24,000 nt of DNA from Candidatus Saccharimonas sp. (GTDB lineage: Bacteria; Patescibacteriota; Saccharimonadia; Saccharimonadales; EFPC-124), in assembly GCA_035478375.1 (NCBI GenBank), contig DATIJQ010000035.1, positions 21,087-45,086 on the forward strand, written 5' to 3'. Made by a program: the position numbers and the translations under genes. The stretch's first letter is position 1. Every line of letters begins with the position of its first letter. Below, piece after piece: positions 2,586-20,502 of this stretch. A model generated the notes under the pieces. The model made no database searches and was not told the DNA's origin. It worked only from the letters and a program-made list of their open reading frames with translations.

Positions 2586-4301
2586 GTGCAGGACTTACGC
2601 ATTATAGATACGCTGGCGCCTTTTGGTGTGCCAAATTCGGCTGGGCCAATTAATTGGTCAAAGGTTGATTTTGCCGCACTCGGACAAAATGGCGAGCTAA
2701 ACGCCGTGACCATTGCGCGCATTTTAGAGCGCAGCAAACTATATTTACAGCGAGCTCGCGCCGCAGGCTACAACGCTGTGAGCGTTGATGATCTCGCCCA
2801 TTTGGCCGTGCACAATTTTTACCCGCCGCCACTTAAACGTCGCCTTGCTACTTACCAAAAAATGTATGCGCAGTTCTTTGCGCTCGCCCATGCCGAAAAC
2901 ATGCGCATTTTTATAACGACCGATTTTTTATTCCACAACGCCGCTATCAGTGCCCATTTGCACCAAACTGGCACTACGGTTGAACGGTTTTTTGAAGCAA
3001 CGCTGCAAAACGTTTTTCGAAGTTTCCCTAAGATTGATGGCATTATACTGCGCATTGGCGAGACAGACGGCCGTGATGTGCACGGCGATTTTGTCAGCCA
3101 ACTACAACTCCGCACTCCAGGCGACGCCAATATATTTCTCAAAACCATTTTGCCGTTTTTTGAACAAACCAACAAAACCTTAATCTTTCGTACTTGGACG
3201 GTGGGCGTGCATAAGATTGGCGACTTAATTTGGAACCGGGCCACATTCAACACGGTTTTTGGTGACATTGCTAGCGCCAACCTGGTTATTAGTATGAAAT
3301 TTGGCGAGACCGATTTTATGCGTTACCTTAAGCTCAACCCGCTGTTTTTTGCGAGCGACCACAAAAAAATTATCGAACTCCAAACCCGCCGCGAATGGGA
3401 GGGCATGGGCCAGCTGCCGAGCTTTGTCGGCTGGGATTACCAGACCTACCGCGACCAATTGGCCGATGCCAAAAATATGATCGGCATTTATGTGTGGTGC
3501 CAGACTGGTGGTTGGTCGTCGCCGACATGGGCAAATGCAACGTTTTTAGATGACGGTTTAAATTTTTGGGATGAACTTAATACTTTTGTGACCGCTCAAT
3601 TATTTAAAGGTATATCTGTCGAGACCGCACTTGCCGACTTTTGCGCTGCCCACGGCATTGTTGATGTGCGTAAGTTTATTGCCTTACTACGGCTTGCCGA
3701 CCAAGTCATCTGCGAAGGTTTGTATATAAAAGAATTTGCCAGTCAGCAATTGTACTTTCGCCGTACGCGCTTGCCAACGTTACTGTGGGTTATGTGGGAC
3801 ACAGTGCGGCCGAGCGACGTTATGGCGACTTTGTTGCGTACGTTTGTCCGCGACAAACAGCAGGCTATGCGCGAAGGCTATACTTCGGCCAAAATCGCCC
3901 AGCATATGGCCGCAATTGGCAACGAACTGCATTTGCCAAAAGAGGTTTTGCGGTCGCTTGCGTTTACTGCCGCGACGTTTACTATTTTTGCCAAAATGCG
4001 CGAGCATGCGTTGGTTGGCTTGGACGCAACCCAGCTTTTGGCTCTACAAAAAGACATTACAGCGTACGAAAAAATCTACCCACACCATTATGTTTTTGCC
4101 GCCGAACCGCTGCGGCAACCTGCCATGATACTGCAAATTTTAATAAGAATCGTTGTCCGCCACCGGTCTGCCTACCGCATTTTGGATAGAGTTTTGCTGG
4201 CGACTTCTCCATTCCAAAAAATTATCGCCCGGCATTATTTTGCGGCAACAAACCCGCAACTCACCCAGCAAGCCATGGGCATTACGGCGATCTTTGAATG
4301 A
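2586..4301 (+). CDS. Conserved-looking cytoplasmic protein (571 aa), possibly a glycoside-hydrolase-like TIM barrel
   Basis: Long clean ORF with no signal peptide. The segment IDGIILRIGETDGRDVHGDF...RTPGDANIFLKTILPFFEQTNKTLIFRTWTVG loosely recalls the catalytic-core pattern of GH67-type alpha-glucuronidases. That comparison is from memory only, so the function is uncertain. Confidence 0.75.
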   Translation: MQDLRIIDTLAPFGVPNSAGPINWSKVDFAALGQNGELNAVTIARILERSKLYLQRARAAGYNAVSVDDLAHLAVHNFYPPPLKRRLATYQKMYAQFFALAHAENMRIFITTDFLFHNAAISAHLHQTGTTVERFFEATLQNVFRSFPKIDGIILRIGETDGRDVHGDFVSQLQLRTPGDANIFLKTILPFFEQTNKTLIFRTWTVGVHKIGDLIWNRATFNTVFGDIASANLVISMKFGETDFMRYLKLNPLFFASDHKKIIELQTRREWEGMGQLPSFVGWDYQTYRDQLADAKNMIGIYVWCQTGGWSSPTWANATFLDDGLNFWDELNTFVTAQLFKGISVETALADFCAAHGIVDVRKFIALLRLADQVICEGLYIKEFASQQLYFRRTRLPTLLWVMWDTVRPSDVMATLLRTFVRDKQQAMREGYTSAKIAQHMAAIGNELHLPKEVLRSLAFTAATFTIFAKMREHALVGLDATQLLALQKDITAYEKIYPHHYVFAAEPLRQPAMILQILIRIVVRHRSAYRILDRVLLATSPFQKIIARHYFAATNPQLTQQAMGITAIFE

Positions 4302-8493: not shown

Positions 8494-8835
8494 ATGACTA
8501 TCCAAATAAAAAGAATTTACGAGCCGGCCCAAAAAACAGACGGCTACCGTGTACTTGTTGATCGGCTGTGGCCACGCGGCGTTAGTCGCCAAAAAGCGGC
8601 GCTCGACGAATGGCTAAAAGAAATCGCACCTTCGACCGAACTCCGCGAATGGTTCGACCACAAACCCGAACGATTTGCCGAATTTAAAAAGCGCTATCAG
8701 GCTGAGCTAGCCGACAACCCGGCATTACAGCGGCTACGTGGCCTCGCCGCAAAACATGGTACGCTTACACTGTTGTACGCAGCGCGCGATCCAGACAATA
8801 ATCATGCTAAGGTTTTAGTGGGCTATTTAAGCTAA
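8494..8835 (+). CDS. yeaO: DUF488 family protein (YeaO-like)
   Basis: MTIQIKRIYEPAQKTDGYRVLVDRLWPRGVSRQKAALDEWLKEIAPSTELREWF...LLYAARDPDNNHAKVL aligns almost position by position with E. coli YeaO as I remember it. Confidence 0.85.
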   Translation: MTIQIKRIYEPAQKTDGYRVLVDRLWPRGVSRQKAALDEWLKEIAPSTELREWFDHKPERFAEFKKRYQAELADNPALQRLRGLAAKHGTLTLLYAARDPDNNHAKVLVGYLS

Positions 8836-10415: not shown

Positions 10416-10994
10416 TTGGCTACGTCTTCAAACAGCAAGCGTACTGAACCCGCCAAACTTAACTGGTGGCGCAAGAAATCGGTCTTGATTCCGCTCATTA
10501 TTCTCGCGGTCATCGGCCTCGCTGTTTGGGGTGTTGCGGACTTTCTGTTTCACAACAGGGCGGCAGACATAGCAGCGCCGCTTGAGAAAAGCCTAGTGGC
10601 GGCTGGAGCGGCCAAAACATGTGAAAATGGTGATCCCGGCCGCGGCCCAGACACATCGGCTGCCGAGTATGGTGCTTCCTACGATGTGCGCATGAGTAAA
10701 GACAACGCTATTGCACTCATGTACCGCGTCGCCAAAGACAATGGATACAATCTTACACATGCCAGCCCGAGTAATCGTGGCCATATAGGCTTTATCGCGG
10801 ACGCTTACATCGACCAATGGTATTTTGACGATAGTAAGCAGCAGCCGTATTGGGATATAAATCCAGGTCCAATTAATCTGGCATTTTCTATCGATGGACC
10901 CGGTTCAAACTACGGGTGTAGAACGACTAGCATTATCCCGTCTGGTCATGCATTGATTAGTCTTAGTGTTGACCTGCCGGACTTCAAGCGCTAG
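10416..10994 (+). CDS. N-terminally membrane-anchored hypothetical protein (192 aa)
   Basis: TTG start with AAGGA about 10 nt upstream. A single TM helix (VLIPLIILAVIGLAVWGVADFLF) precedes a soluble domain with no recognised motif. Confidence 0.65.
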   Translation: MATSSNSKRTEPAKLNWWRKKSVLIPLIILAVIGLAVWGVADFLFHNRAADIAAPLEKSLVAAGAAKTCENGDPGRGPDTSAAEYGASYDVRMSKDNAIALMYRVAKDNGYNLTHASPSNRGHIGFIADAYIDQWYFDDSKQQPYWDINPGPINLAFSIDGPGSNYGCRTTSIIPSGHALISLSVDLPDFKR

Positions 10995-11344
10995 CCAAAT
11001 CAATAGGCCCAGGACAGCAAATACACCAACACGGCGGCATGGAAAGTCGCCGCGGTTCGATCCGCAAACTCGAAGATGCTCTTTTACTATCAGAGGATGC
11101 TGACGACCCGGCGTGTTACCGTCAAAAACTGCCGTCAAAGCCACTCGCTGCCACCCAAATATGGTCATCTTTCGGCAACAAAAACAGACCTTCACCAGTA
11201 GTAACAGGCGTTGATCTGTCAGGAGTTCAATATGGTGAGCCTAACGACTACTCAGGTCGAAACCCTCTTCGGTGAATTGGAATATATTGAGCCGAGATTG
11301 AAGGCCCTTGGCATTAACACAAAAAGTGTGCCGAAGCTATCTAG

Positions 11345-16512: not shown

Positions 16513-16547
16513 TGACAGTTACACCCGACCGTGAAGATAACATATTA

Positions 16548-16581
16548 AGAAAAGTTCGAGCACATAATCTCGAACTTTTCT
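16548..16581. terminator. Perfect 13-bp hairpin just outside the distal att-like repeat (presumed pre-integration tRNA-Glu terminator)
   Basis: AGAAAAGTTCGAG-cacataat-CTCGAACTTTTCT. On the minus strand it lies 26 nt downstream of the tRNA 3'-end copy at 16608-16630 and is followed by T/A-rich sequence. Confidence 0.5.
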
Positions 16582-16607
16582 TATCTGTAAATTTTAAAAT
16601 AATGTCA

Positions 16608-16630
16608 TGGTGACCCTACCGGGACTCGAA
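16608..16630 (-). repeat. Duplicate of the 3' 23 nt of tRNA-Glu (att-like direct repeat)
   Basis: tggtgaccctaccgggactcgaa here matches tggtgaccctatcgggactcgaa at 18798-18820 in 22 of 23 positions, in the same orientation. Confidence 0.65.
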
Positions 16631-16727
16631 TTGAGAACACCTTATCCACCGCAACCCTCAGCGGTCGCGCAACGGATATAAGACTTACTATGCAAGTACA
16701 AGCAAGACGCTGGTTGGTCGGTGCCGT

Positions 16728-16749
16728 TGCCGTCAAGTTTGCCGTCAAA
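16728..16749 (+). repeat. Sub-terminal direct repeat copy A (tandem CCGTCAA half-sites)
   Basis: TGCCGTCAAGTTTGCCGTCAAA matches copy B at 18697-18718 in 20 of 22 positions. A third partial GTGCCGT lies immediately upstream. Confidence 0.5.
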
Positions 16750-16833
16750 GGCCAGAAGTAGAAAATGAGCTGATTGTAGGCCTAACACAGTTCTTACGAC
16801 AAGCGGCAATCTGCAAACTATTGGCTGACGATT

Positions 16834-17421
16834 TTAATGATGAAAGAATGAAGTTAGCGATCCGCCCCATTGTGACCAAATTGTCGCAACGCTCGCAGCA
16901 TTCGTTAGAGCGCCAGCCAAAGCGGTAAGCACCATTTTAACCACGCTTTTTTGTCGCTGCGATTGCGGTAAAGTCGCCTGTTCTGCTAGAAAAGCTAACT
17001 GTTCAATAACTTGCTGTTTTTCAGTCTCTTTAATTTCTCGAGTGGCTATAACTGTTTCTGTAAGTAGCCTTATCGCTTTAGCAACATCTTCATCGCCATT
17101 GTTCTGAATGTCGTCCATGGCAACGTCAATGCGCCCCACTTGTGCCGTATTGATCGCGCCGATTACACTACGATCAACATTAATGTGGTTGTATGTTACC
17201 GACGCGCTGTTGATTCCAGACTGTGGAATTTGAATGCGCGGCCCACGTGGGGGTAGTCCAAAAGTAGCATAGATCTGGTCGCTTAGATAATTTATCATGG
17301 CCGCATTTGTAGCCATGGCCGCTTGAGCATTTTGCGCAACCATGTTGTAATGCTCCACGCAAAGTAAACTGCCGTTCTGCATTTGATAAAAGGCGGCGCG
17401 ACTGCATTGGCTGCAATGCAT
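16834..17421 (-). CDS. Hypothetical protein (195 aa) translationally coupled to the Fic gene
   Basis: Its ATG shares one base with the Fic stop codon (TAATG at 17423-17419). It has an N-terminal Cys/His cluster (CSQCS...LCVEH), a central helical region and a hydrophobic C-terminus. I recognise no family. Confidence 0.7.
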   Translation of the reverse strand: MHCSQCSRAAFYQMQNGSLLCVEHYNMVAQNAQAAMATNAAMINYLSDQIYATFGLPPRGPRIQIPQSGINSASVTYNHINVDRSVIGAINTAQVGRIDVAMDDIQNNGDEDVAKAIRLLTETVIATREIKETEKQQVIEQLAFLAEQATLPQSQRQKSVVKMVLTALAGALTNAASVATIWSQWGGSLTSFFHH

Positions 17422-18563
17422 TAAACACCTCCCCCATTGGCGGTAAATAGCCGAATATAGTTTTGGTAGGCAAATTGCCGCCCGTACGTTGCTGCTTCAT
17501 CCGTAGGCTGAAGAATGCCTAGATTGACGAACTTCTTAATAAGCTGATTTGCAGCTGGGCGGGAGAGGCCGGTGATTTTTTCGGCAGCAGCCACGTCAAC
17601 AATTGGCTGGCTATACAAACCCTTGAGTAACTTCACCGCAGTGGGCGCCTGCTTGCCGCCAAGGGCATGGACGATAGTCATGTCTTGCTCGCGTATTGTA
17701 ATTATGTGCTTCGAGACATCAGTTGCTTCGCGAGCGACCTCGGCAACACCCTCCAAGAAAAACTCAACCCACTCATTAACTTCGCCTTTGTTATGGTAGG
17801 CGGAAAGTCGATCGAAATAGGTGTCTCGGTGCCGCTTAAAATATTCAGATAGATAAAGAATAGGGTACTCGAGCACCTTTTGGCGACACAAATACATAGT
17901 AATCAAAAGCCGCCCCGTGCGGCCGTTACCGTCCAAGAACGGGTGTATGGTTTCAAACTGGGCATGCATGAGCGCTGCATTGATAAGCGCTGGGTAGGAC
18001 TGTTTTTTGTTAAGAAAATTTTCGAAGTCACTGAGCACCCTGCCCAGTTCATGCACCGGTGGCGGAACGAAATCGGCATTGTCAGGCCGTGTGCCGCCGA
18101 TCCAGTTCTGTGTTTTGCGGATTTCACCTGGAGTCTTGCCCACACCTTCGGCGGTTTCCGCCATCAACTGCTCGTGCAGCTCGCGGATTACGCGCAGTAT
18201 TAGCGGCATTGACTTAAGTCGACTCAAGCCATAGTTAACAGCCTTTACGTAATGTAAGATGTTTTCTACGTCACGAGGTACACCTTCAGTAATATTGAGG
18301 TCAGCCTTCAATGAGTCATGCATAGTCGCTTTAGTACCTTCGATGTTGCTCGAAAGAGTAGCTTCTTTGCGGACGTACATATAAATAAAGAAATCAATGT
18401 CCGGAATAAGCTGAGCGATGCCGTCCAACTTACCGAGCGCCAGCGTGGCATCCGCAGCAAGAAGTTGGGTTTGTGACCTAAAAACAAGCGGCGTTGTGGG
18501 CGGAAAAGCATCGGGGATAAATGCCTTGAAGCCCGCAGGTTGCGTTACAAATTTACCAATCAC
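17421..18563 (-). CDS. Fic/DOC family protein (AMPylase type) with an N-terminal inhibitory motif and a C-terminal winged-helix domain
   Basis: The Fic motif HPFLDGNGRTGR fits HxFx(D/E)GNGRxxR. LSSNIEGT fits the auto-inhibitory motif (S/T)xxxE(G/N). The C-terminal ITGLSRPAANQLIKKFVNLGILQ looks like a wHTH. GTG start with AAGGA upstream. Confidence 0.9.
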   Translation of the reverse strand: MIGKFVTQPAGFKAFIPDAFPPTTPLVFRSQTQLLAADATLALGKLDGIAQLIPDIDFFIYMYVRKEATLSSNIEGTKATMHDSLKADLNITEGVPRDVENILHYVKAVNYGLSRLKSMPLILRVIRELHEQLMAETAEGVGKTPGEIRKTQNWIGGTRPDNADFVPPPVHELGRVLSDFENFLNKKQSYPALINAALMHAQFETIHPFLDGNGRTGRLLITMYLCRQKVLEYPILYLSEYFKRHRDTYFDRLSAYHNKGEVNEWVEFFLEGVAEVAREATDVSKHIITIREQDMTIVHALGGKQAPTAVKLLKGLYSQPIVDVAAAEKITGLSRPAANQLIKKFVNLGILQPTDEAATYGRQFAYQNYIRLFTANGGGV

Positions 18564-18564
18564 G

Positions 18565-18595
18565 TACTTAACATCCTTTTATACAATGTTAAGTA
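18565..18595. promoter_or_regulatory. Operator-like palindrome IR1 over the Fic -10 / RBS region
   Basis: TACTTAACAT, an 11-nt spacer, then ATGTTAAGTA: perfect 10-bp arms. Confidence 0.55.
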
Positions 18596-18620
18596 TAACC
18601 CGTCGAACTTAACATTGCAA
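18592..18620 (-). promoter_or_regulatory. Predicted Fic promoter
   Basis: The minus strand reads TTGCAA, a 17-nt spacer, then TATACT. The -35 lies in the spacer of IR2 and the -10 overlaps an arm of IR1. Confidence 0.45.
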
Positions 18621-18637
18621 CATTAAATGTTAAGTTC
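18605..18637. promoter_or_regulatory. Operator-like palindrome IR2 over the Fic -35 region
   Basis: GAACTTAACAT, an 11-nt spacer, then ATGTTAAGTTC: perfect 11-bp arms. It has the same core and spacer length as IR1, and the two centres are about 41 bp apart. Confidence 0.55.
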
Positions 18638-18696
18638 ATAGTGACACGTTGCCCTGCGGTTGTGTATATGTTGACGCAAGGAATTTCGGATTTTAC

Positions 18697-18718
18697 TGCC
18701 GTCAAGATTACCGTCAAA
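18697..18718 (+). repeat. Sub-terminal direct repeat copy B
   Basis: TGCCGTCAAGATTACCGTCAAA lies about 80 nt inside the tRNA-proximal end of the islet. Confidence 0.5.
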
Positions 18719-18744
18719 TCCCGTTTTTAGCATAATCAACACCT

Positions 18745-18780
18745 AACAAAACAAACTAGCAACCGGGGTGAGGTTGCTAG
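18745..18780 (-). terminator. Rho-independent terminator of tRNA-Glu
   Basis: The minus strand reads CTAGCAACC-tcacccc-GGTTGCTAG (9 bp), followed by TTTGTTTTGTT. Confidence 0.65.
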
Positions 18781-18797
18781 TTTGGCTAATCTCAATC

Positions 18798-18872
18798 TGG
18801 TGACCCTATCGGGACTCGAACCCGAGTTGCCGCCGTGAGAGGGCGATGTCCTAACCGCTAGACGATAGGGCC
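18798..18872 (-). tRNA. tRNA-Glu: tRNA-Glu (anticodon CUC), CCA-encoded, 75 nt
   Basis: Hand-folded cloverleaf: acceptor GGCCCTA/TAGGGTC, D arm GTCT-AGCGGTTA-GGAC, anticodon arm TCGCC-CTCTCAC-GGCGG, variable loop CAAC, T arm TCGGG-TTCGAGT-CCCGA, then ACCA. Confidence 0.9.
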
Positions 18873-19024: not shown

Positions 19025-19918
19025 CTAAAAATCAAGCAAGCTATCGAGGTGGGCGTAGCTGACAGTGCAGGTCGCCATGGCATCCATGAAGATGCTGCCG
19101 TAGCGACGATCGAGGGGATTGTTGGCGTGGTGCGTGGTGTGCACATCGACAGGTGCGCCAATGTAAGCGTTGAGACGTGTTTCGGTGGGTCGCTGCCATG
19201 GGCCAAGGATTAATGGCGCTGGTCTGACAAGTCCTTCTGTCTGATGCCACCAACCGTACTGTCCCAAAATGAGCCACTGGCGGTGTAGCTGCAGCGAGCA
19301 GTCCAAGATCACCTCTGCCCATTTACGTTGACGTTCGTCGAGGGCGTTACCTGCGTTGGCGGTGACGATGCTCAGCTGTTGGCCGGTGTGCACCAGCCGC
19401 CTAAGCAGGTCGTCCATGTCGGAATAGTCGCACGGCAGTACGCGCTTCTCGTTGTCCGCCAGCCAGCGGTGTAATGCTGTTTGGAACATGGCTTGCTGTG
19501 GGTTGCTGCTCAGAACAAGTTTAATGTTGTTGAGCTGCAGAGGGCCGTTGCCTGGCTTGCGCTGCCAGCCGCTCTCAATGGCGATGGTATTGGCGCTCTG
19601 TAGCAAGGCGCCGTGCTGCTCGGTGAGGTCGGTCAGGTTGCCGGCGCTGTCATGGTTGCAGAGCAACAATGGCACAGCCCGGTCTGTCCGTCCAAAGAAT
19701 TTTAGATACGAAAGCCCCTCCTTTTGCAACTTGTTTTGCAGCACGCTTGGCGGAGGTACGTTAGATTCGAGCGGCTCGCCAGTCAGTAAATCGAGCAGAC
19801 GAATCTTGCCAGAATCGTAACTAAAGTGAGTCCCTTCTATGCTGTCAAGTACGTGTCTCAGGTCGATGTCGTTGCCGGATAAACTCTTGTCATCTGACAT
19901 GCGTATAGTGTACCACAT
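19025..19918 (-). CDS. Hypothetical protein (297 aa; alternative start MSDDKS at 19900)
   Basis: Clean long ORF with no TM helix, no signal peptide and no recognised motif. No SD sequence at either candidate start. Confidence 0.65.
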   Translation of the reverse strand: MWYTIRMSDDKSLSGNDIDLRHVLDSIEGTHFSYDSGKIRLLDLLTGEPLESNVPPPSVLQNKLQKEGLSYLKFFGRTDRAVPLLLCNHDSAGNLTDLTEQHGALLQSANTIAIESGWQRKPGNGPLQLNNIKLVLSSNPQQAMFQTALHRWLADNEKRVLPCDYSDMDDLLRRLVHTGQQLSIVTANAGNALDERQRKWAEVILDCSLQLHRQWLILGQYGWWHQTEGLVRPAPLILGPWQRPTETRLNAYIGAPVDVHTTHHANNPLDRRYGSIFMDAMATCTVSYAHLDSLLDF

Positions 19919-19926
19919 AGGTGTAT

Positions 19927-19952
19927 GGTTGGGCGTCGCTTGACGCCCAACC
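19927..19952 (-). other. Perfect 11-bp intercistronic hairpin with a 4-nt loop
   Basis: GGTTGGGCGTC-gctt-GACGCCCAACC lies between the stop at 19960 and the start at 19918. No U-run follows on either strand. Confidence 0.5.
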
Positions 19953-19959
19953 GCGGGGT

Positions 19960-20502
19960 TTACCGGAAGATGAAGGCTACCACAACCAGCGCGATGCCTG
20001 CAATCAGGAATCGGATGGCTATGGCGTGCAACCGCTTGTAGCGGTCGAGCGGACCCGTTTTGCGCGCTGTCCGCATTATGTGTTTGACATAGACGTCAAA
20101 ATTGGTCTTGATGAGACCAGTCCAGACCTCTGGTGGCATGAAGTTTTTAACCAGCACGTCGAGTCGCGGCATATAGGCCATCAGCGACAGCATCATAGCG
20201 ATGCCAGTTGCGACCGCGCTCAGCTTTGACGCAATGACAACGACAATATTGCCGCCCTGGAAAAAGAATACGCACGCTGCCAAAATAATACCGCCAAGGC
20301 TCACCAGCATTGTGGTGCGCGCCGAAACCTGCGCGAGCTCTTTGCTGCGGTAGTCATATTCATCTTTTGCTTCAGCGATCGCACGTCCACCGTTGGGGTG
20401 GGCTAACCAGGCAGCGCGGTATTTTTCTTGTTGCTTTGCCCACCAAGCGTCGGCGTCGAATTCTTTGTAATGGAACAGTTTTTGCAGCAACCTTTGGAGC
20501 AA
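19960..20502 (-). CDS. Small membrane protein (180 aa, about 3 TM helices)
   Basis: TTG start with GAGGAAGG 7 nt upstream. A soluble N-terminal 60 aa precedes a TM hairpin (MLVSLGGIILAACVFFF / IVVVIASKLSAVATGIAMMLSLMAY) and a C-terminal TM helix (IRFLIAGIALVVVAFIF). Confidence 0.65.
   Translation of the reverse strand: MLQRLLQKLFHYKEFDADAWWAKQQEKYRAAWLAHPNGGRAIAEAKDEYDYRSKELAQVSARTTMLVSLGGIILAACVFFFQGGNIVVVIASKLSAVATGIAMMLSLMAYMPRLDVLVKNFMPPEVWTGLIKTNFDVYVKHIMRTARKTGPLDRYKRLHAIAIRFLIAGIALVVVAFIFR

What the first reader, a model, noticed from the sequence alone, without database searches (positions are those of the whole stretch)
16608..18872. A 23-nt duplication of the tRNA-Glu 3' end delimits a 2.2 kb integrase-less islet carrying Fic
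tggtgaccctaCcgggactcgaa (16608-16630) repeats the T-loop-to-CCA end of tRNA-Glu (18798-18820) in 22 of 23 positions, in direct orientation. This is the classic footprint of site-specific integration into a tRNA 3' end.

Two further details fit that reading. A new terminator (18745-18780) lies just inside the islet. A perfect 13-bp hairpin (16548-16581) lies just beyond the distal repeat and looks like the displaced original tRNA terminator.

The cargo is only the Fic gene and a 195-aa gene, with no recombinase. The element is therefore either a decayed island or a miniature element mobilised in trans.
Basis: partly seen in the sequence, partly recalled or inferred. Interest (0 to 1): 0.6.

Follow-up and report, generated by a model that had tools for sequence, protein, structure and literature searches.

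The report
Integrase-less defence islet at tRNA-Glu
A 2.2-kb piece of foreign DNA carrying a Fic-type anti-phage gene pair sits in the tail of a tRNA-Glu gene of a tiny-genome Saccharibacteria bacterium. It keeps both recombination-site arms of a family of integrase-carrying elements but has no integrase of its own, which makes it a well-documented example of a known kind of hitch-hiker or relic.

Summary
tRNA-Glu(CTC) lies at 18798-18872 on the minus strand. Its last 23 nt recur, 22/23 identical and in direct orientation, at 16608-16630, and nowhere else in the 983-kb assembly.

The insertion is real. The 70 nt beyond the distal repeat are homologous to the trailer that directly follows intact tRNA-Glu(CTC) in four related genera. 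The sequence next to the intact tRNA here is not.

New evidence ties the islet to an integrase family. Its sub-terminal tandem GCCGTCAA repeats are the signature of a ~410-aa tyrosine-integrase family found in 9 of 401 genomes of the order. Three complete 7-10-kb elements carry this motif at both ends, with the same geometry as the islet. The islet is therefore an integrase-less, CIME-like derivative with both att arms kept.

The same genome holds:
- a second element of this lineage at tRNA-Lys
- a 1-kb integrase-less islet at tRNA-Val
- a 55-codon integrase remnant with the motif at window 10973-11272

The cargo is a SoFic-type defence gene plus a rare 195-aa partner. The homologous pair is also a repeat-bounded 2.1-kb islet in another genome.

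No integrase is in the assembly, which also lacks the housekeeping Xer. Current mobility is untested. This scan has noted many integrase-less tRNA islets on other DNA. Verdict: new member of a known kind.

The parts
16546..16607 (-). Displaced ancestral trailer of tRNA-Glu, comprising a 24-nt trailer (16584-16607) and a 15-bp perfect hairpin (16546-16583). This is the chromosomal B' side of attR.
   Evidence: Terminator-like, z = -5.0. 56 of 70 nt are identical to the trailer directly after intact tRNA-Glu(CTC) in G013, score 36 against a shuffle maximum of 12. It also scores above shuffles against G014, G016 and G001.
16608..16630 (-). Displaced 23-nt 3' fragment of tRNA-Glu (attR core). It carries the genus-typical G at the one variable position.
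16631..16833 (+). Distal (P-type) arm. A 97-nt spacer is followed by the tandem motif GCCGTCAA-N4-GCCGTCAA at 16728-16749. The block 16704-16789 is shared with the tRNA-Lys element on contig C66.
   Evidence: D8. Searches show 76% identity over 91 nt to C66, with a well-conserved core block around the motif. The core-to-motif distance is 88-97 nt, as in complete elements.
16834..17421 (-). 195-aa cargo gene whose start overlaps the stop of Fic. It has a Zn-ribbon-like CxxC...CxxH N-terminus and a helical bundle. Function unknown; it is a candidate regulator or antitoxin of the Fic protein.
   Evidence: No Pfam or NCBIfam hit. Only 25 homologues in 5.8 billion proteins. Found in 3 of 401 genomes of the order and in none of the 18 other genomes of its family searched. 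AF2 mean pLDDT 73 with no PDB fold match. Paired with Fic in L031.
17421..18563 (-). SoFic-type Fic protein (Fic_N + Fic + C-terminal winged helix).
   Evidence: Pfam. PADLOC SoFic E = 2.3e-108 over the full length. The HPFLDGNGRTGR catalytic motif and the SSNIEG inhibitory-helix motif are present.
18565..18637 (-). Fic promoter and operator with twin palindromes. This is part of the cargo module, not of the att arms.
   Evidence: Inverted repeats I1 and I21. Promoter-like TTGCAA-17-TATACT. 79% conserved upstream of the homologous Fic gene in L031.
18638..18797 (+). Proximal (P'-type) arm. It holds the tandem motif GCCGTCAA-N4-ACCGTCAA at 18697-18718, then the element-borne terminator hairpin 18752-18784 that now ends the tRNA transcript.
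   Evidence: Same position and orientation as the motif at the 3' end of 7 of the 8 full-length integrase genes of the family, with a GCCGGTCAA variant in the eighth. No similarity to relatives' tRNA-Glu trailers.
18798..18872 (-). Intact tRNA-Glu(CTC). Its last 23 nt (18798-18820) are the attL core. The T-stem pair is T-A instead of the genus-typical C-G.
10973..11272 (+). Outside the islet: a C-terminal remnant of an integrase of the same family (about 55 codons, catalytic Tyr position now His). It is followed by the tandem motif ACCGTCAA-N5-GCCGTCAA and possibly a degenerate tRNA-Glu-like 3' end at 11233-11272.
   Evidence: It is the only hit of the family profile HMM in the six-frame genome, E = 0.003, HMM positions 337-385. 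tblastn with two integrases hits the same place. Sequence read; motif found.

Best explanation
The 2,190-bp segment is an integrase-less derivative of a family of small tyrosine-integrase integrative elements of Saccharimonadales-type Saccharibacteria.

How it got there. It was placed by site-specific recombination in the T-loop-to-CCA part of tRNA-Glu(CTC). The element side supplied a replacement 3' end and a new terminator for the tRNA. The original 23-nt end and its trailer hairpin were pushed 2.2 kb downstream.

What it retains. Both junctions keep the family's arms. A tandem GCCGTCAA array lies about 80 nt inside attL and about 97 nt inside attR, both in the same orientation. If the islet were circularised, this would rebuild a lambda-type attP of the form arm sites - core - arm sites.

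Cargo. One operon is carried: a SoFic-type AMPylating defence protein and a translationally coupled 195-aa partner.

Mobility. Without int or xis the islet cannot move by itself. It could move only if a cognate integrase acted in trans, or if an integrase-bearing sibling landed beside it (CIME-type behaviour).

Shown versus inferred:
- Shown: the insertion, its borders, the homology of the arms to integrase-bearing elements, the lack of int and xis, and the cargo identity.
- Inferred: that the GCCGTCAA arrays are integrase arm-binding sites.
- Unresolved: whether the islet arose by loss of int/xis from a larger parent (my slight preference, about 0.5) or entered as a mini-circle (about 0.3).
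For: Insertion:
- 22/23 direct repeat, unique in the genome.
- The displaced trailer is homologous to the trailer abutting intact tRNA-Glu(CTC) in four genera, while the proximal flank is not.
- Seven relatives have no tRNA-Glu fragment within 10 kb.
- The upstream side is syntenic and the downstream side differs in every relative.
- The cargo partner gene was not found in any of the 18 other genomes of its family searched.

Family link:
- In 7 of the 8 full-length integrase genes of the family (9 of 401 genomes carry the family), the tandem GCCGTCAA motif sits at the int 3' end, 37-50 nt from the tRNA or pseudo-tRNA end. The eighth has a GCCGGTCAA variant.
- Three complete elements (7.2, 7.4 and 9.6 kb) carry the motif at both ends in direct orientation, with the displaced tRNA fragment about 95 nt outside the distal copy. 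This is the geometry of the islet.
- Their core module is an HTH protein, a 213-279-aa protein, two HTH_17 excisionase-like genes and int.
- The unit spacing is 12 nt in the islet and 13 nt in G012. In the G012 integrase ORF the two units therefore fall in different reading frames, so the conservation is at the DNA level.

Same lineage in this genome:
- The tRNA-Lys(CTT) element has a homologous distal arm.
- An integrase remnant with the motif lies at 10973-11272.

No int or xis homologues anywhere in the assembly.

Cargo.
Against: - No cognate integrase was found in this genome. No excised circle and no same-species empty site was observed.
- The genome is a 78-contig MAG, so a local assembly artefact cannot be formally excluded.
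- The role of the GCCGTCAA arrays as protein-binding sites rests on position and conservation only. A loosened version of the pattern also occurs by chance (about 27 control hits in 401 genomes). Its reverse complement also resembles a -35 box.
- The homologous Fic pair in L031 is bounded by different arms (GTGTTCCA repeats). The cargo is therefore not tied to this integrase family.
Confidence: 0.8

Rival explanations
1. The islet is a still-active miniature cassette. It excises and integrates as a 2.2-kb circle using an integrase supplied in trans by a full-length sibling. In this way defence cassettes would be exchanged among Saccharibacteria in an integron-like manner.
For: - Both arm arrays are intact and at canonical distances, with no int or xis debris between arms and cargo.
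- A second element with a closely similar distal arm is in the same genome, as is a further integrase-less 1-kb islet at tRNA-Val.
- The homologous Fic pair is again a 2.1-kb repeat-bounded islet in L031, with other arms.
- G004 has an orphan arm array at tRNA-Trp.
Against: - No integrase is present in the assembly.
- The core has one mismatch and the tRNA T-stem pair is compensated, which fits an old, fixed insertion.
- No circle or empty-site allele has been seen.
- No second copy of the islet exists anywhere.
Confidence: 0.3
2. The islet is moved by, or is a relic of, a large serine recombinase element rather than a tyrosine integrase.
For: - The only recombinase in the assembly is a 586-aa serine recombinase abutting tRNA-Gln on contig C12.
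- Serine recombinases lie next to the Fic islet in L031 and 8-10 kb downstream of tRNA-Glu in G002.
Against: - Serine integrases exchange at a 2-bp core and do not need or create 23-45-nt tRNA duplications (established knowledge).
- The islet's arm motif is found at the 3' end of tyrosine integrase genes in 7 of 8 full-length cases.
- The identity blocks start in the T-loop (Glu) and the anticodon loop (Lys). These are the two classic tyrosine-integrase sublocations (Islander statistics, PMC4383910).
Confidence: 0.04
3. This is not an insertion. The 23-mer arose by local duplication, or the contig is a mis-join, and the Fic genes are ordinary chromosomal neighbours of tRNA-Glu.
For: Observed in a single MAG. 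GC content of the islet (47.5%) is only slightly below the genome value (50.5%).
Against: - Homology of the trailer to the tRNA-abutting trailers of four genera.
- Arm homology to integrase-bearing elements.
- The cargo gene was not found in any of the 18 other genomes of the family searched.
- The repeat ends exactly at the T-loop boundary.
Confidence: 0.03

Closest known systems
CIMEs (cis-mobilizable elements), as defined for streptococcal ICE families and catalogued in ICEberg 2.0 (PMC6323972)
   Same: It has lost its integration genes but retains attL and attR related to those of integrase-bearing elements. It sits at a site where siblings integrate. Its cargo is adaptive (defence).
   Different: The parent elements here are 7-10-kb int/xis islands with no conjugation module that I could recognise, so they are not ICEs. 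Mobilisation in cis by accretion plus conjugation has no evident counterpart. The host is a roughly 1-Mb epibiont-type Saccharibacteria genome.
tDNA-targeted genomic islands as mapped by Islander (PMC4383910; sublocations after Williams 2002, cited there)
   Same: There is an intact tRNA plus a displaced 3' fragment in direct orientation. The island restores the tRNA. The crossover region lies in the T-stem/loop (Glu) or the anticodon loop (the Lys sibling).
   Different: Islander requires an integrase gene inside a candidate island. This islet has none and would be filtered out. At 2.2 kb it is far smaller than typical islands.
Lambda-type (heterobivalent) tyrosine integrase attP sites with arm-type sites
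   Same: Tandem short repeats lie on both sides of the core at about 40-100 nt. The P' array abuts the 3' end of int. The integrases have an N-terminal SAM-like domain plus a catalytic domain and are about 30% identical to mycobacteriophage and Thermus phage integrases.
   Different: Binding is untested. The arm consensus (GCCGTCAA) and the family are, as far as my searches show, undescribed (one search found no paper on Saccharibacteria tRNA islands).
SoFic anti-phage defence, with the downstream antitoxin AS1 in E. coli (PMC12249575)
   Same: Full-length match to the PADLOC SoFic model, with the catalytic and inhibitory-helix motifs present. A small gene immediately downstream is translationally coupled.
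   Different: The downstream partner is 195 aa rather than 47 aa, and I found nothing that links the two. The score is far below NCBIfam's equivalog cut-off (154 against 550 bits). Defence activity is untested.

Membership tests
tRNA-targeted genomic island (Islander definition) | Intact tDNA plus a displaced 3' tDNA fragment in direct orientation delimiting the island | tested here: met
tRNA-targeted genomic island (Islander definition) | An integrase gene inside the island | tested here: not met
   No PF00589 or PF00239 domain in the islet ORFs. The family HMM and tblastn find nothing in 16631-18797.
tRNA-targeted genomic island (Islander definition) | Empty site in relatives | tested here: met
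   The trailer abutting intact tRNA-Glu in G013, G014, G016 and G001 is homologous to the flank of the distal fragment. There are no fragments in seven relatives. The evidence is cross-genus only; no same-species allele was seen.
CIME (cis-mobilizable element) | Retains attL and attR related to those of an integrase-bearing element | tested here: met
   The core repeat plus arm arrays have the same geometry as the complete elements L080, L082 and L083.
CIME (cis-mobilizable element) | Lacks integration/excision and transfer genes | tested here: met
CIME (cis-mobilizable element) | Mobilised in cis by an ICE after accretion | not testable with these tools
   No conjugation genes were recognised in the parent elements. 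No experimental data.
Element family of the ~410-aa Saccharimonadales tyrosine integrase (defined here) | Tandem GCCGTCAA array in the P' arm within about 100 nt of the tRNA junction, same strand as int | tested here: met
   Array at 18697-18718, 79 nt from the tRNA end.
Element family of the ~410-aa Saccharimonadales tyrosine integrase (defined here) | Second array in direct orientation about 90-100 nt inside the displaced tRNA fragment | tested here: met
   Array at 16728-16749, 97 nt from the fragment. The distance is about 95 nt in the three complete elements and 88 nt in C66.
Element family of the ~410-aa Saccharimonadales tyrosine integrase (defined here) | int plus two HTH_17 excisionase-like genes | tested here: not met
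   Absent from the islet and from the assembly. Only a 55-codon int remnant is present, at 10973-11272.
SoFic defence system | Fic fold with the HPFx(D/E)GNGR motif and a full-length SoFic architecture | tested here: met
   PADLOC SoFic 2.3e-108, profile positions 5-359 of 361. Motifs read.
SoFic defence system | Protection against phage | not testable with these tools
   Needs an expression and infection assay.

The most novel reading that the evidence does not exclude
Integrase-less cassettes that keep complete att arms may be a regular currency of gene exchange in Saccharibacteria, and perhaps in other tiny-genome lineages.

Under this reading, rare integrases (about 2% of genomes) move one-operon defence cassettes in trans into tRNA tails, much as integron integrases move cassettes. 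The same SoFic + 195-aa operon can be re-packaged between the arms of different integrase families.

Observations that fit this reading:
- The pair is bounded by GCCGTCAA arms here and by GTGTTCCA arms in L031, both at a tRNA-Glu tail.
- This genome holds three integrase-less tRNA islets and no integrase.
Probability: 0.22. Interest if true: 0.6.

Novelty: new member of a known kind. Interest (0 to 1): 0.36.

Why it matters
It shows how a roughly 1-Mb symbiont-type genome, a group often described as poor in mobile elements, acquires phage-defence genes. They arrive through tRNA-tail integration by a definable tyrosine-integrase family, whose arm motif makes both full elements and their integrase-less relics findable by sequence.

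It also flags a blind spot. Island finders that require an integrase miss such islets.

If the cassettes are still mobilised in trans, the system would be a compact, natural cargo-plus-att toolkit for a phylum that lacks genetic tools.

Tried and rejected

2. Exact-pattern scans of public collections:
- The distal-arm block found nothing in genome contigs or metagenome contigs.
- A looser arm pattern hit only three unrelated high-GC genomes, which I take as chance.
- The predicted empty-site junction found nothing in metagenomes.

3. Reading the GCCGTCAA tandem as a conserved small peptide (AVKxAVK). Rejected, because the unit spacing is 12 nt in the islet but 13 nt in G012. In the G012 integrase ORF the two units therefore fall in different frames, and the motif also lies in an integrase tail and in a hairpin loop at G004 tRNA-Trp.

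4. A loosened motif pattern across 401 genomes is noisy, with about 27 hits of the reversed control. Only the association with integrase ends and tRNA junctions is used as evidence.

5. The family-wide strict pattern (N4 spacing) found no copy in the 18 relatives. It missed G012 because the spacing there is 5.

6. The fold of the 195-aa protein gave no significant PDB match. The weak PADLOC hit PDC-M14B (E = 0.002) was ignored.

7. The record behind L031 could not be searched further. Whether an intact tRNA-Glu lies upstream of its serine-recombinase/RM island is therefore unknown.

8. DNA-level synteny with same-genus genomes finds only the tRNA. Protein-level comparison was needed.
Full report
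**Observation**

tRNA-Glu(CTC) lies at 18798-18872 on the minus strand. Its last 23 nt comprise the T-loop, the 3' T-stem strand, the 3' acceptor strand, the discriminator and CCA. They recur at 16608-16630 with one mismatch, in direct orientation and 2,190 bp away.

With up to two mismatches the 23-mer occurs nowhere else in the 983-kb, 78-contig assembly. The window is contig C35:21087-45086. Chance expectation is about 2e-6 genome-wide.

Two hairpins are involved:
- A 13-bp perfect hairpin with a T-rich tail at 18752-18784 now follows the tRNA.
- A 15-bp perfect hairpin at 16546-16583 follows the displaced fragment.

Both are terminator-like on the tRNA strand, with z = -4.2 and -5.0.

Between the repeats lie a Fic gene (17421-18563) and a 195-aa gene (16834-17421) whose start overlaps the Fic stop. 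Neither has a recombinase domain.

**Is it an insertion?**

Earlier follow-up notes of this scan place the genome in Saccharibacteria. Its size of about 1 Mb and its relatives fit that.

At the DNA level only the tRNA is conserved with the three same-genus genomes. At the protein level:
- The side upstream of the tRNA (a response regulator and the 505-aa and 365-aa genes) is syntenic in six relatives.
- The side downstream is different in every one.

The decisive comparison is the tRNA trailer. The 70 nt beyond the distal fragment align with the 70 nt that directly follow intact tRNA-Glu(CTC) in:

| Relative | Alignment score | Note |
|---|---|---|
| G013 | 36 | 56/70 identical; shuffles mean 5.8, max 12 |
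| G014 | 18 | above all shuffles |
| G016 | 15 | above all shuffles |
| G001 (same genus) | 16 | above all shuffles |

The 70 nt next to the intact tRNA here score at noise level, 2-5.

None of seven relatives has a tRNA-Glu 3' fragment within 10 kb. The 195-aa cargo gene was found in only 3 of 401 genomes of the order and in none of the 18 other genomes of its family searched.

So 2.19 kb were inserted between the tRNA body and its ancestral trailer. This empty-site evidence is cross-genus. No same-species allele was available.

The single mismatch is informative:
- The three same-genus genomes have a C-G pair at the outer T-stem position.
- The displaced fragment keeps that G.
- The live tRNA has A, paired with a T on the 5' strand.

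Two histories fit. In the first, the element brought the A and the 5' strand later compensated. In the second, this lineage's tRNA natively had T-A and the element's attP carried the genus-typical G, with the crossover 3' of the position. Either way the two copies come from different tRNA alleles, as expected for attB x attP recombination and not for a simple local duplication.

**Which kind of element?**

A second direct repeat lies inside both ends. It is a tandem GCCGTCAA-N4-(G/A)CCGTCAA at 16728-16749 and 18697-18718 (D8).

The key result came from a relative. In G012 (same family) a 413-aa tyrosine integrase gene converges on tRNA-Lys(CTT). Its last codons run through GCCGTCAA-N5-GCCGTCAA, 37 nt from the tRNA end.

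Searching that integrase in 401 genomes of the order found it in 9 of them. Eight copies are full length, two of these in G012. Seven of the eight full-length genes, and one truncated copy, have the tandem motif at the int 3' end. The eighth has a GCCGGTCAA variant.

Three complete elements show the full layout: G082 (7.2 kb), G285 (7.4 kb) and G150 (9.6 kb). Each reads terminator, displaced tRNA 3' half, about 95 nt, motif, cargo, an HTH gene, a 213-279-aa gene, two HTH_17 excisionase-like genes, int, motif, about 90 nt, core. Both motif copies are in the same orientation.

The islet has exactly this geometry: fragment, 97 nt, motif ... motif, 79 nt, tRNA. It lacks the HTH/xis/int module.

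The motif units are spaced 12 nt apart in the islet and 13 nt in G012. In the G012 integrase ORF the two units are therefore read in different frames. The motif also occurs in a hairpin loop next to tRNA-Trp in G004, where no integrase was found. The conservation is therefore at the DNA level.

I infer that these are the arm-type binding sites of a heterobivalent, lambda-like integrase. The integrases have the SAM-like N-terminal domain and are about 30% identical to mycobacteriophage and Thermus phage integrases.

**This genome's other traces of the family**

A scan of all tRNAs against the genome gave three displaced 3' fragments:
- **Glu**, this islet.
- **Lys(CTT)**. The intact gene is on C64. 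A 45-nt fragment starting in the anticodon loop is on C66, so the element is split by the assembly.
- **Val(TAC)**. A 33-nt fragment plus 23 nt of trailer bounds a 1,032-bp islet with two small ORFs and no GCCGTCAA motif.

The distal arm of the Lys element is 76% identical over 91 nt to that of the Glu islet, with a well-conserved core block around the motif. Its proximal arm on C64 carries GCTGTCAA repeats and no integrase.

A profile HMM of eight family integrases, run against the six-frame genome, has one hit. It lies at window 10973-11272, E = 0.003, HMM positions 337-385. It is a 55-codon C-terminal remnant in which the catalytic Tyr position reads His. It is followed at once by ACCGTCAA-N5-GCCGTCAA and, 90 nt on, by a possible degenerate tRNA-Glu-like end.

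No int, xis or other core-module homologue exists elsewhere in the assembly.

The absence of any PF00589 protein is weak evidence. Seventeen of 18 relatives have a housekeeping Xer-like gene that this 92%-complete assembly also lacks.

The only recombinase present is a 586-aa serine recombinase abutting tRNA-Gln on C12.

**Cargo**

The Fic protein has Fic_N, Fic and a C-terminal winged helix. It carries the HPFLDGNGRTGR catalytic motif and an SSNIEG inhibitory-helix motif. It matches the PADLOC SoFic model over its full length, E = 2.3e-108.

SoFic is a published abortive-infection AMPylase. In E. coli a small downstream gene, AS1, counteracts its toxicity (PMC12249575). By analogy the coupled 195-aa gene may regulate or neutralise the Fic protein. 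This is an inference.

What is known about the 195-aa protein:
- It has a CxxC...CxxH N-terminus, a long helix, a disordered linker and a helical bundle (AF2 mean pLDDT 73).
- It has no PDB fold match and no family assignment.
- Only 25 homologues exist in 5.8 billion proteins.
- They occur with Fic (L031), behind a 2-hydroxyacid-dehydrogenase-like gene (L032), or alone.
- Two are 2-3 kb downstream of tRNA genes, and one of these lies in a repeat-bounded 3.1-kb segment.

The Fic promoter/operator palindromes at 18565-18637 belong to the cargo. They are 79% conserved upstream of the L031 homologue.

**The same cargo in another att context**

L031 comes from a 1.1-Mb metagenome contig. Its Fic-194 pair is 74% identical to this one over 1,553 nt.

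There the pair is bounded by 42-nt direct repeats, 76% alike and 2,105 bp apart. Each repeat consists of GTGTTCCA, a tRNA-Glu-like 3' end and the family trailer AATTGAAATTA.

There is no GCCGTCAA motif in L031. A serine-recombinase/type I RM island lies upstream.

The two-gene operon thus appears twice as a roughly 2.1-kb integrase-less unit at a tRNA-Glu tail, with different arms. This is the best hint that such cassettes are re-packaged and moved. It is not proof.

**Mechanism and rivals**

Best-supported explanation (0.8): site-specific integration by a family tyrosine integrase into the T-loop-to-CCA segment. The element supplied a new tRNA end and terminator. The islet now lacks int/xis and is immobile by itself.

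Within that, I slightly prefer reduction of a larger int-bearing parent at this hot spot (about 0.5) over entry as a mini-circle with integrase in trans (about 0.3). The clean arms without int debris, and the L031 case, speak for the second.

A serine-recombinase mechanism (0.04) conflicts with two observations: the long tRNA duplications, and the arm motif's association with tyrosine integrase genes.

A duplication or mis-assembly (0.03) conflicts with the trailer and arm homologies.

**Comparison with known systems**

- **CIMEs.** The islet meets the structural definition: attL and attR retained, integration and transfer genes lost (PMC6323972). The parents here are small int/xis islands without recognisable conjugation genes, so mobilisation in cis by an ICE is not applicable as such.
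- **Islander-type tDNA island.** It meets the tDNA-plus-fragment criterion but fails the integrase criterion (PMC4383910).

I found no paper on tRNA-integrated islands of Saccharibacteria.

This scan has already noted many integrase-less tRNA islets in other genomes. There are 123 notes, including Patescibacteria, actinobacterial and archaeal cases read as CIME-like. The general phenomenon is therefore not new to the scan.

What is added here is the explicit link of an islet to its integrase family through a conserved arm motif, together with the recurrence of the same cargo between different arms.

**Verdict**

- Observation: confirmed.
- Novelty: new member of a known kind.
- Interest: moderate to low, 0.36.

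Noticed in passing
window 10973-11272: A C-terminal remnant of a family tyrosine integrase (catalytic Tyr position now His), followed by the tandem ACCGTCAA/GCCGTCAA motif and a possible degenerate tRNA-Glu-like 3' end at 11233-11272. It suggests earlier integrations in the region downstream of tRNA-Glu. How it relates to the ancestral-looking trailer at 16546-16607 is unexplained.
   Followed up: partly
G000 contig C74:14220-15284 (L118:1221-2285): A third integrase-less islet. tRNA-Val(TAC) and a perfect 33-nt 3' fragment plus 23 nt of shared trailer lie 1,032 bp apart. They enclose a 189-aa putative secreted protein and a 74-aa membrane ORF. No GCCGTCAA motif is present.
   Followed up: partly
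G000 contigs C64:5101-10053 (L023) and C66:5226-5742 (L024): A second element of the same arm lineage at tRNA-Lys(CTT). It has a 45-nt fragment starting in the anticodon loop, and the terminator hairpin is duplicated at both ends. The element is split by the assembly. It carries small unknown genes and a large (at least 734 aa) cutinase-domain protein. One gene (C64:6594-7124) is homologous to a gene beside a broken integrase at tRNA-Phe in G002.
   Followed up: partly
G000 contig C12:2031-3791 (L037): A 586-aa large serine recombinase ORF whose 3' end overlaps tRNA-Gln(CTG) (3706-3779, opposite strand). No tRNA-Gln fragment was found elsewhere in the assembly.
   Followed up: no
L080:19330-19470, L082:14620-14760, L083:12455-12600: In the three complete elements the junction lies in the anticodon loop of a tRNA-Met(CAT)-like gene. 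The element-supplied 3' half looks non-canonical (over-long T-loop, poor acceptor pairing) and ARAGORN calls no tRNA there. The genuine 3' half is the displaced fragment. Integration may therefore inactivate this tRNA copy.
   Followed up: no
L031:6522-6563 and 8627-8668: The homologous Fic-194 pair in a 1.1-Mb metagenome contig is bounded by 42-nt direct repeats made of GTGTTCCA, a tRNA-Glu-like 3' end and the trailer. This is a different arm set. A serine recombinase plus a type I RM island lies directly upstream.
   Followed up: partly
L116:15590-15666 (G004:C1): The tandem GCCGTCAA motif sits in the loop of a hairpin 38 nt from the 3' end of tRNA-Trp(CCA), with an inverted single copy upstream. 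No family integrase was found in this 99%-complete genome, so this is an orphan arm.
   Followed up: partly
window 19025-20502: The 297-aa and 180-aa genes between tRNA-Glu and the conserved response-regulator gene have no counterpart at this position in the relatives. G002 has only 230 nt there. The upstream side of the tRNA therefore also holds lineage-specific DNA.
   Followed up: no
L004:1576-1700 (G003): About 120 nt downstream of tRNA-Glu(CTC) in this same-genus genome lies a degenerate tRNA-Glu-like 3' end (TTCGATTCCCGTAGGGTTAC). A GGAACAC motif is nearby. It may be a tiny integration scar of the GTGTTCC-arm type.
   Followed up: no
window 18690-18717, minus strand: The reverse complement of the proximal arm motif forms a promoter-like TTGACG-16-TAAAAT (10 of 12) pointing toward the Fic operon. 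The arm array could double as an outward promoter.
   Followed up: no
whole assembly G000: No PF00589 protein at all, although 17 of 18 genomes of the family have a roughly 310-aa Xer-like recombinase. The missing 8% of the assembly may therefore hide recombinases.
   Followed up: partly
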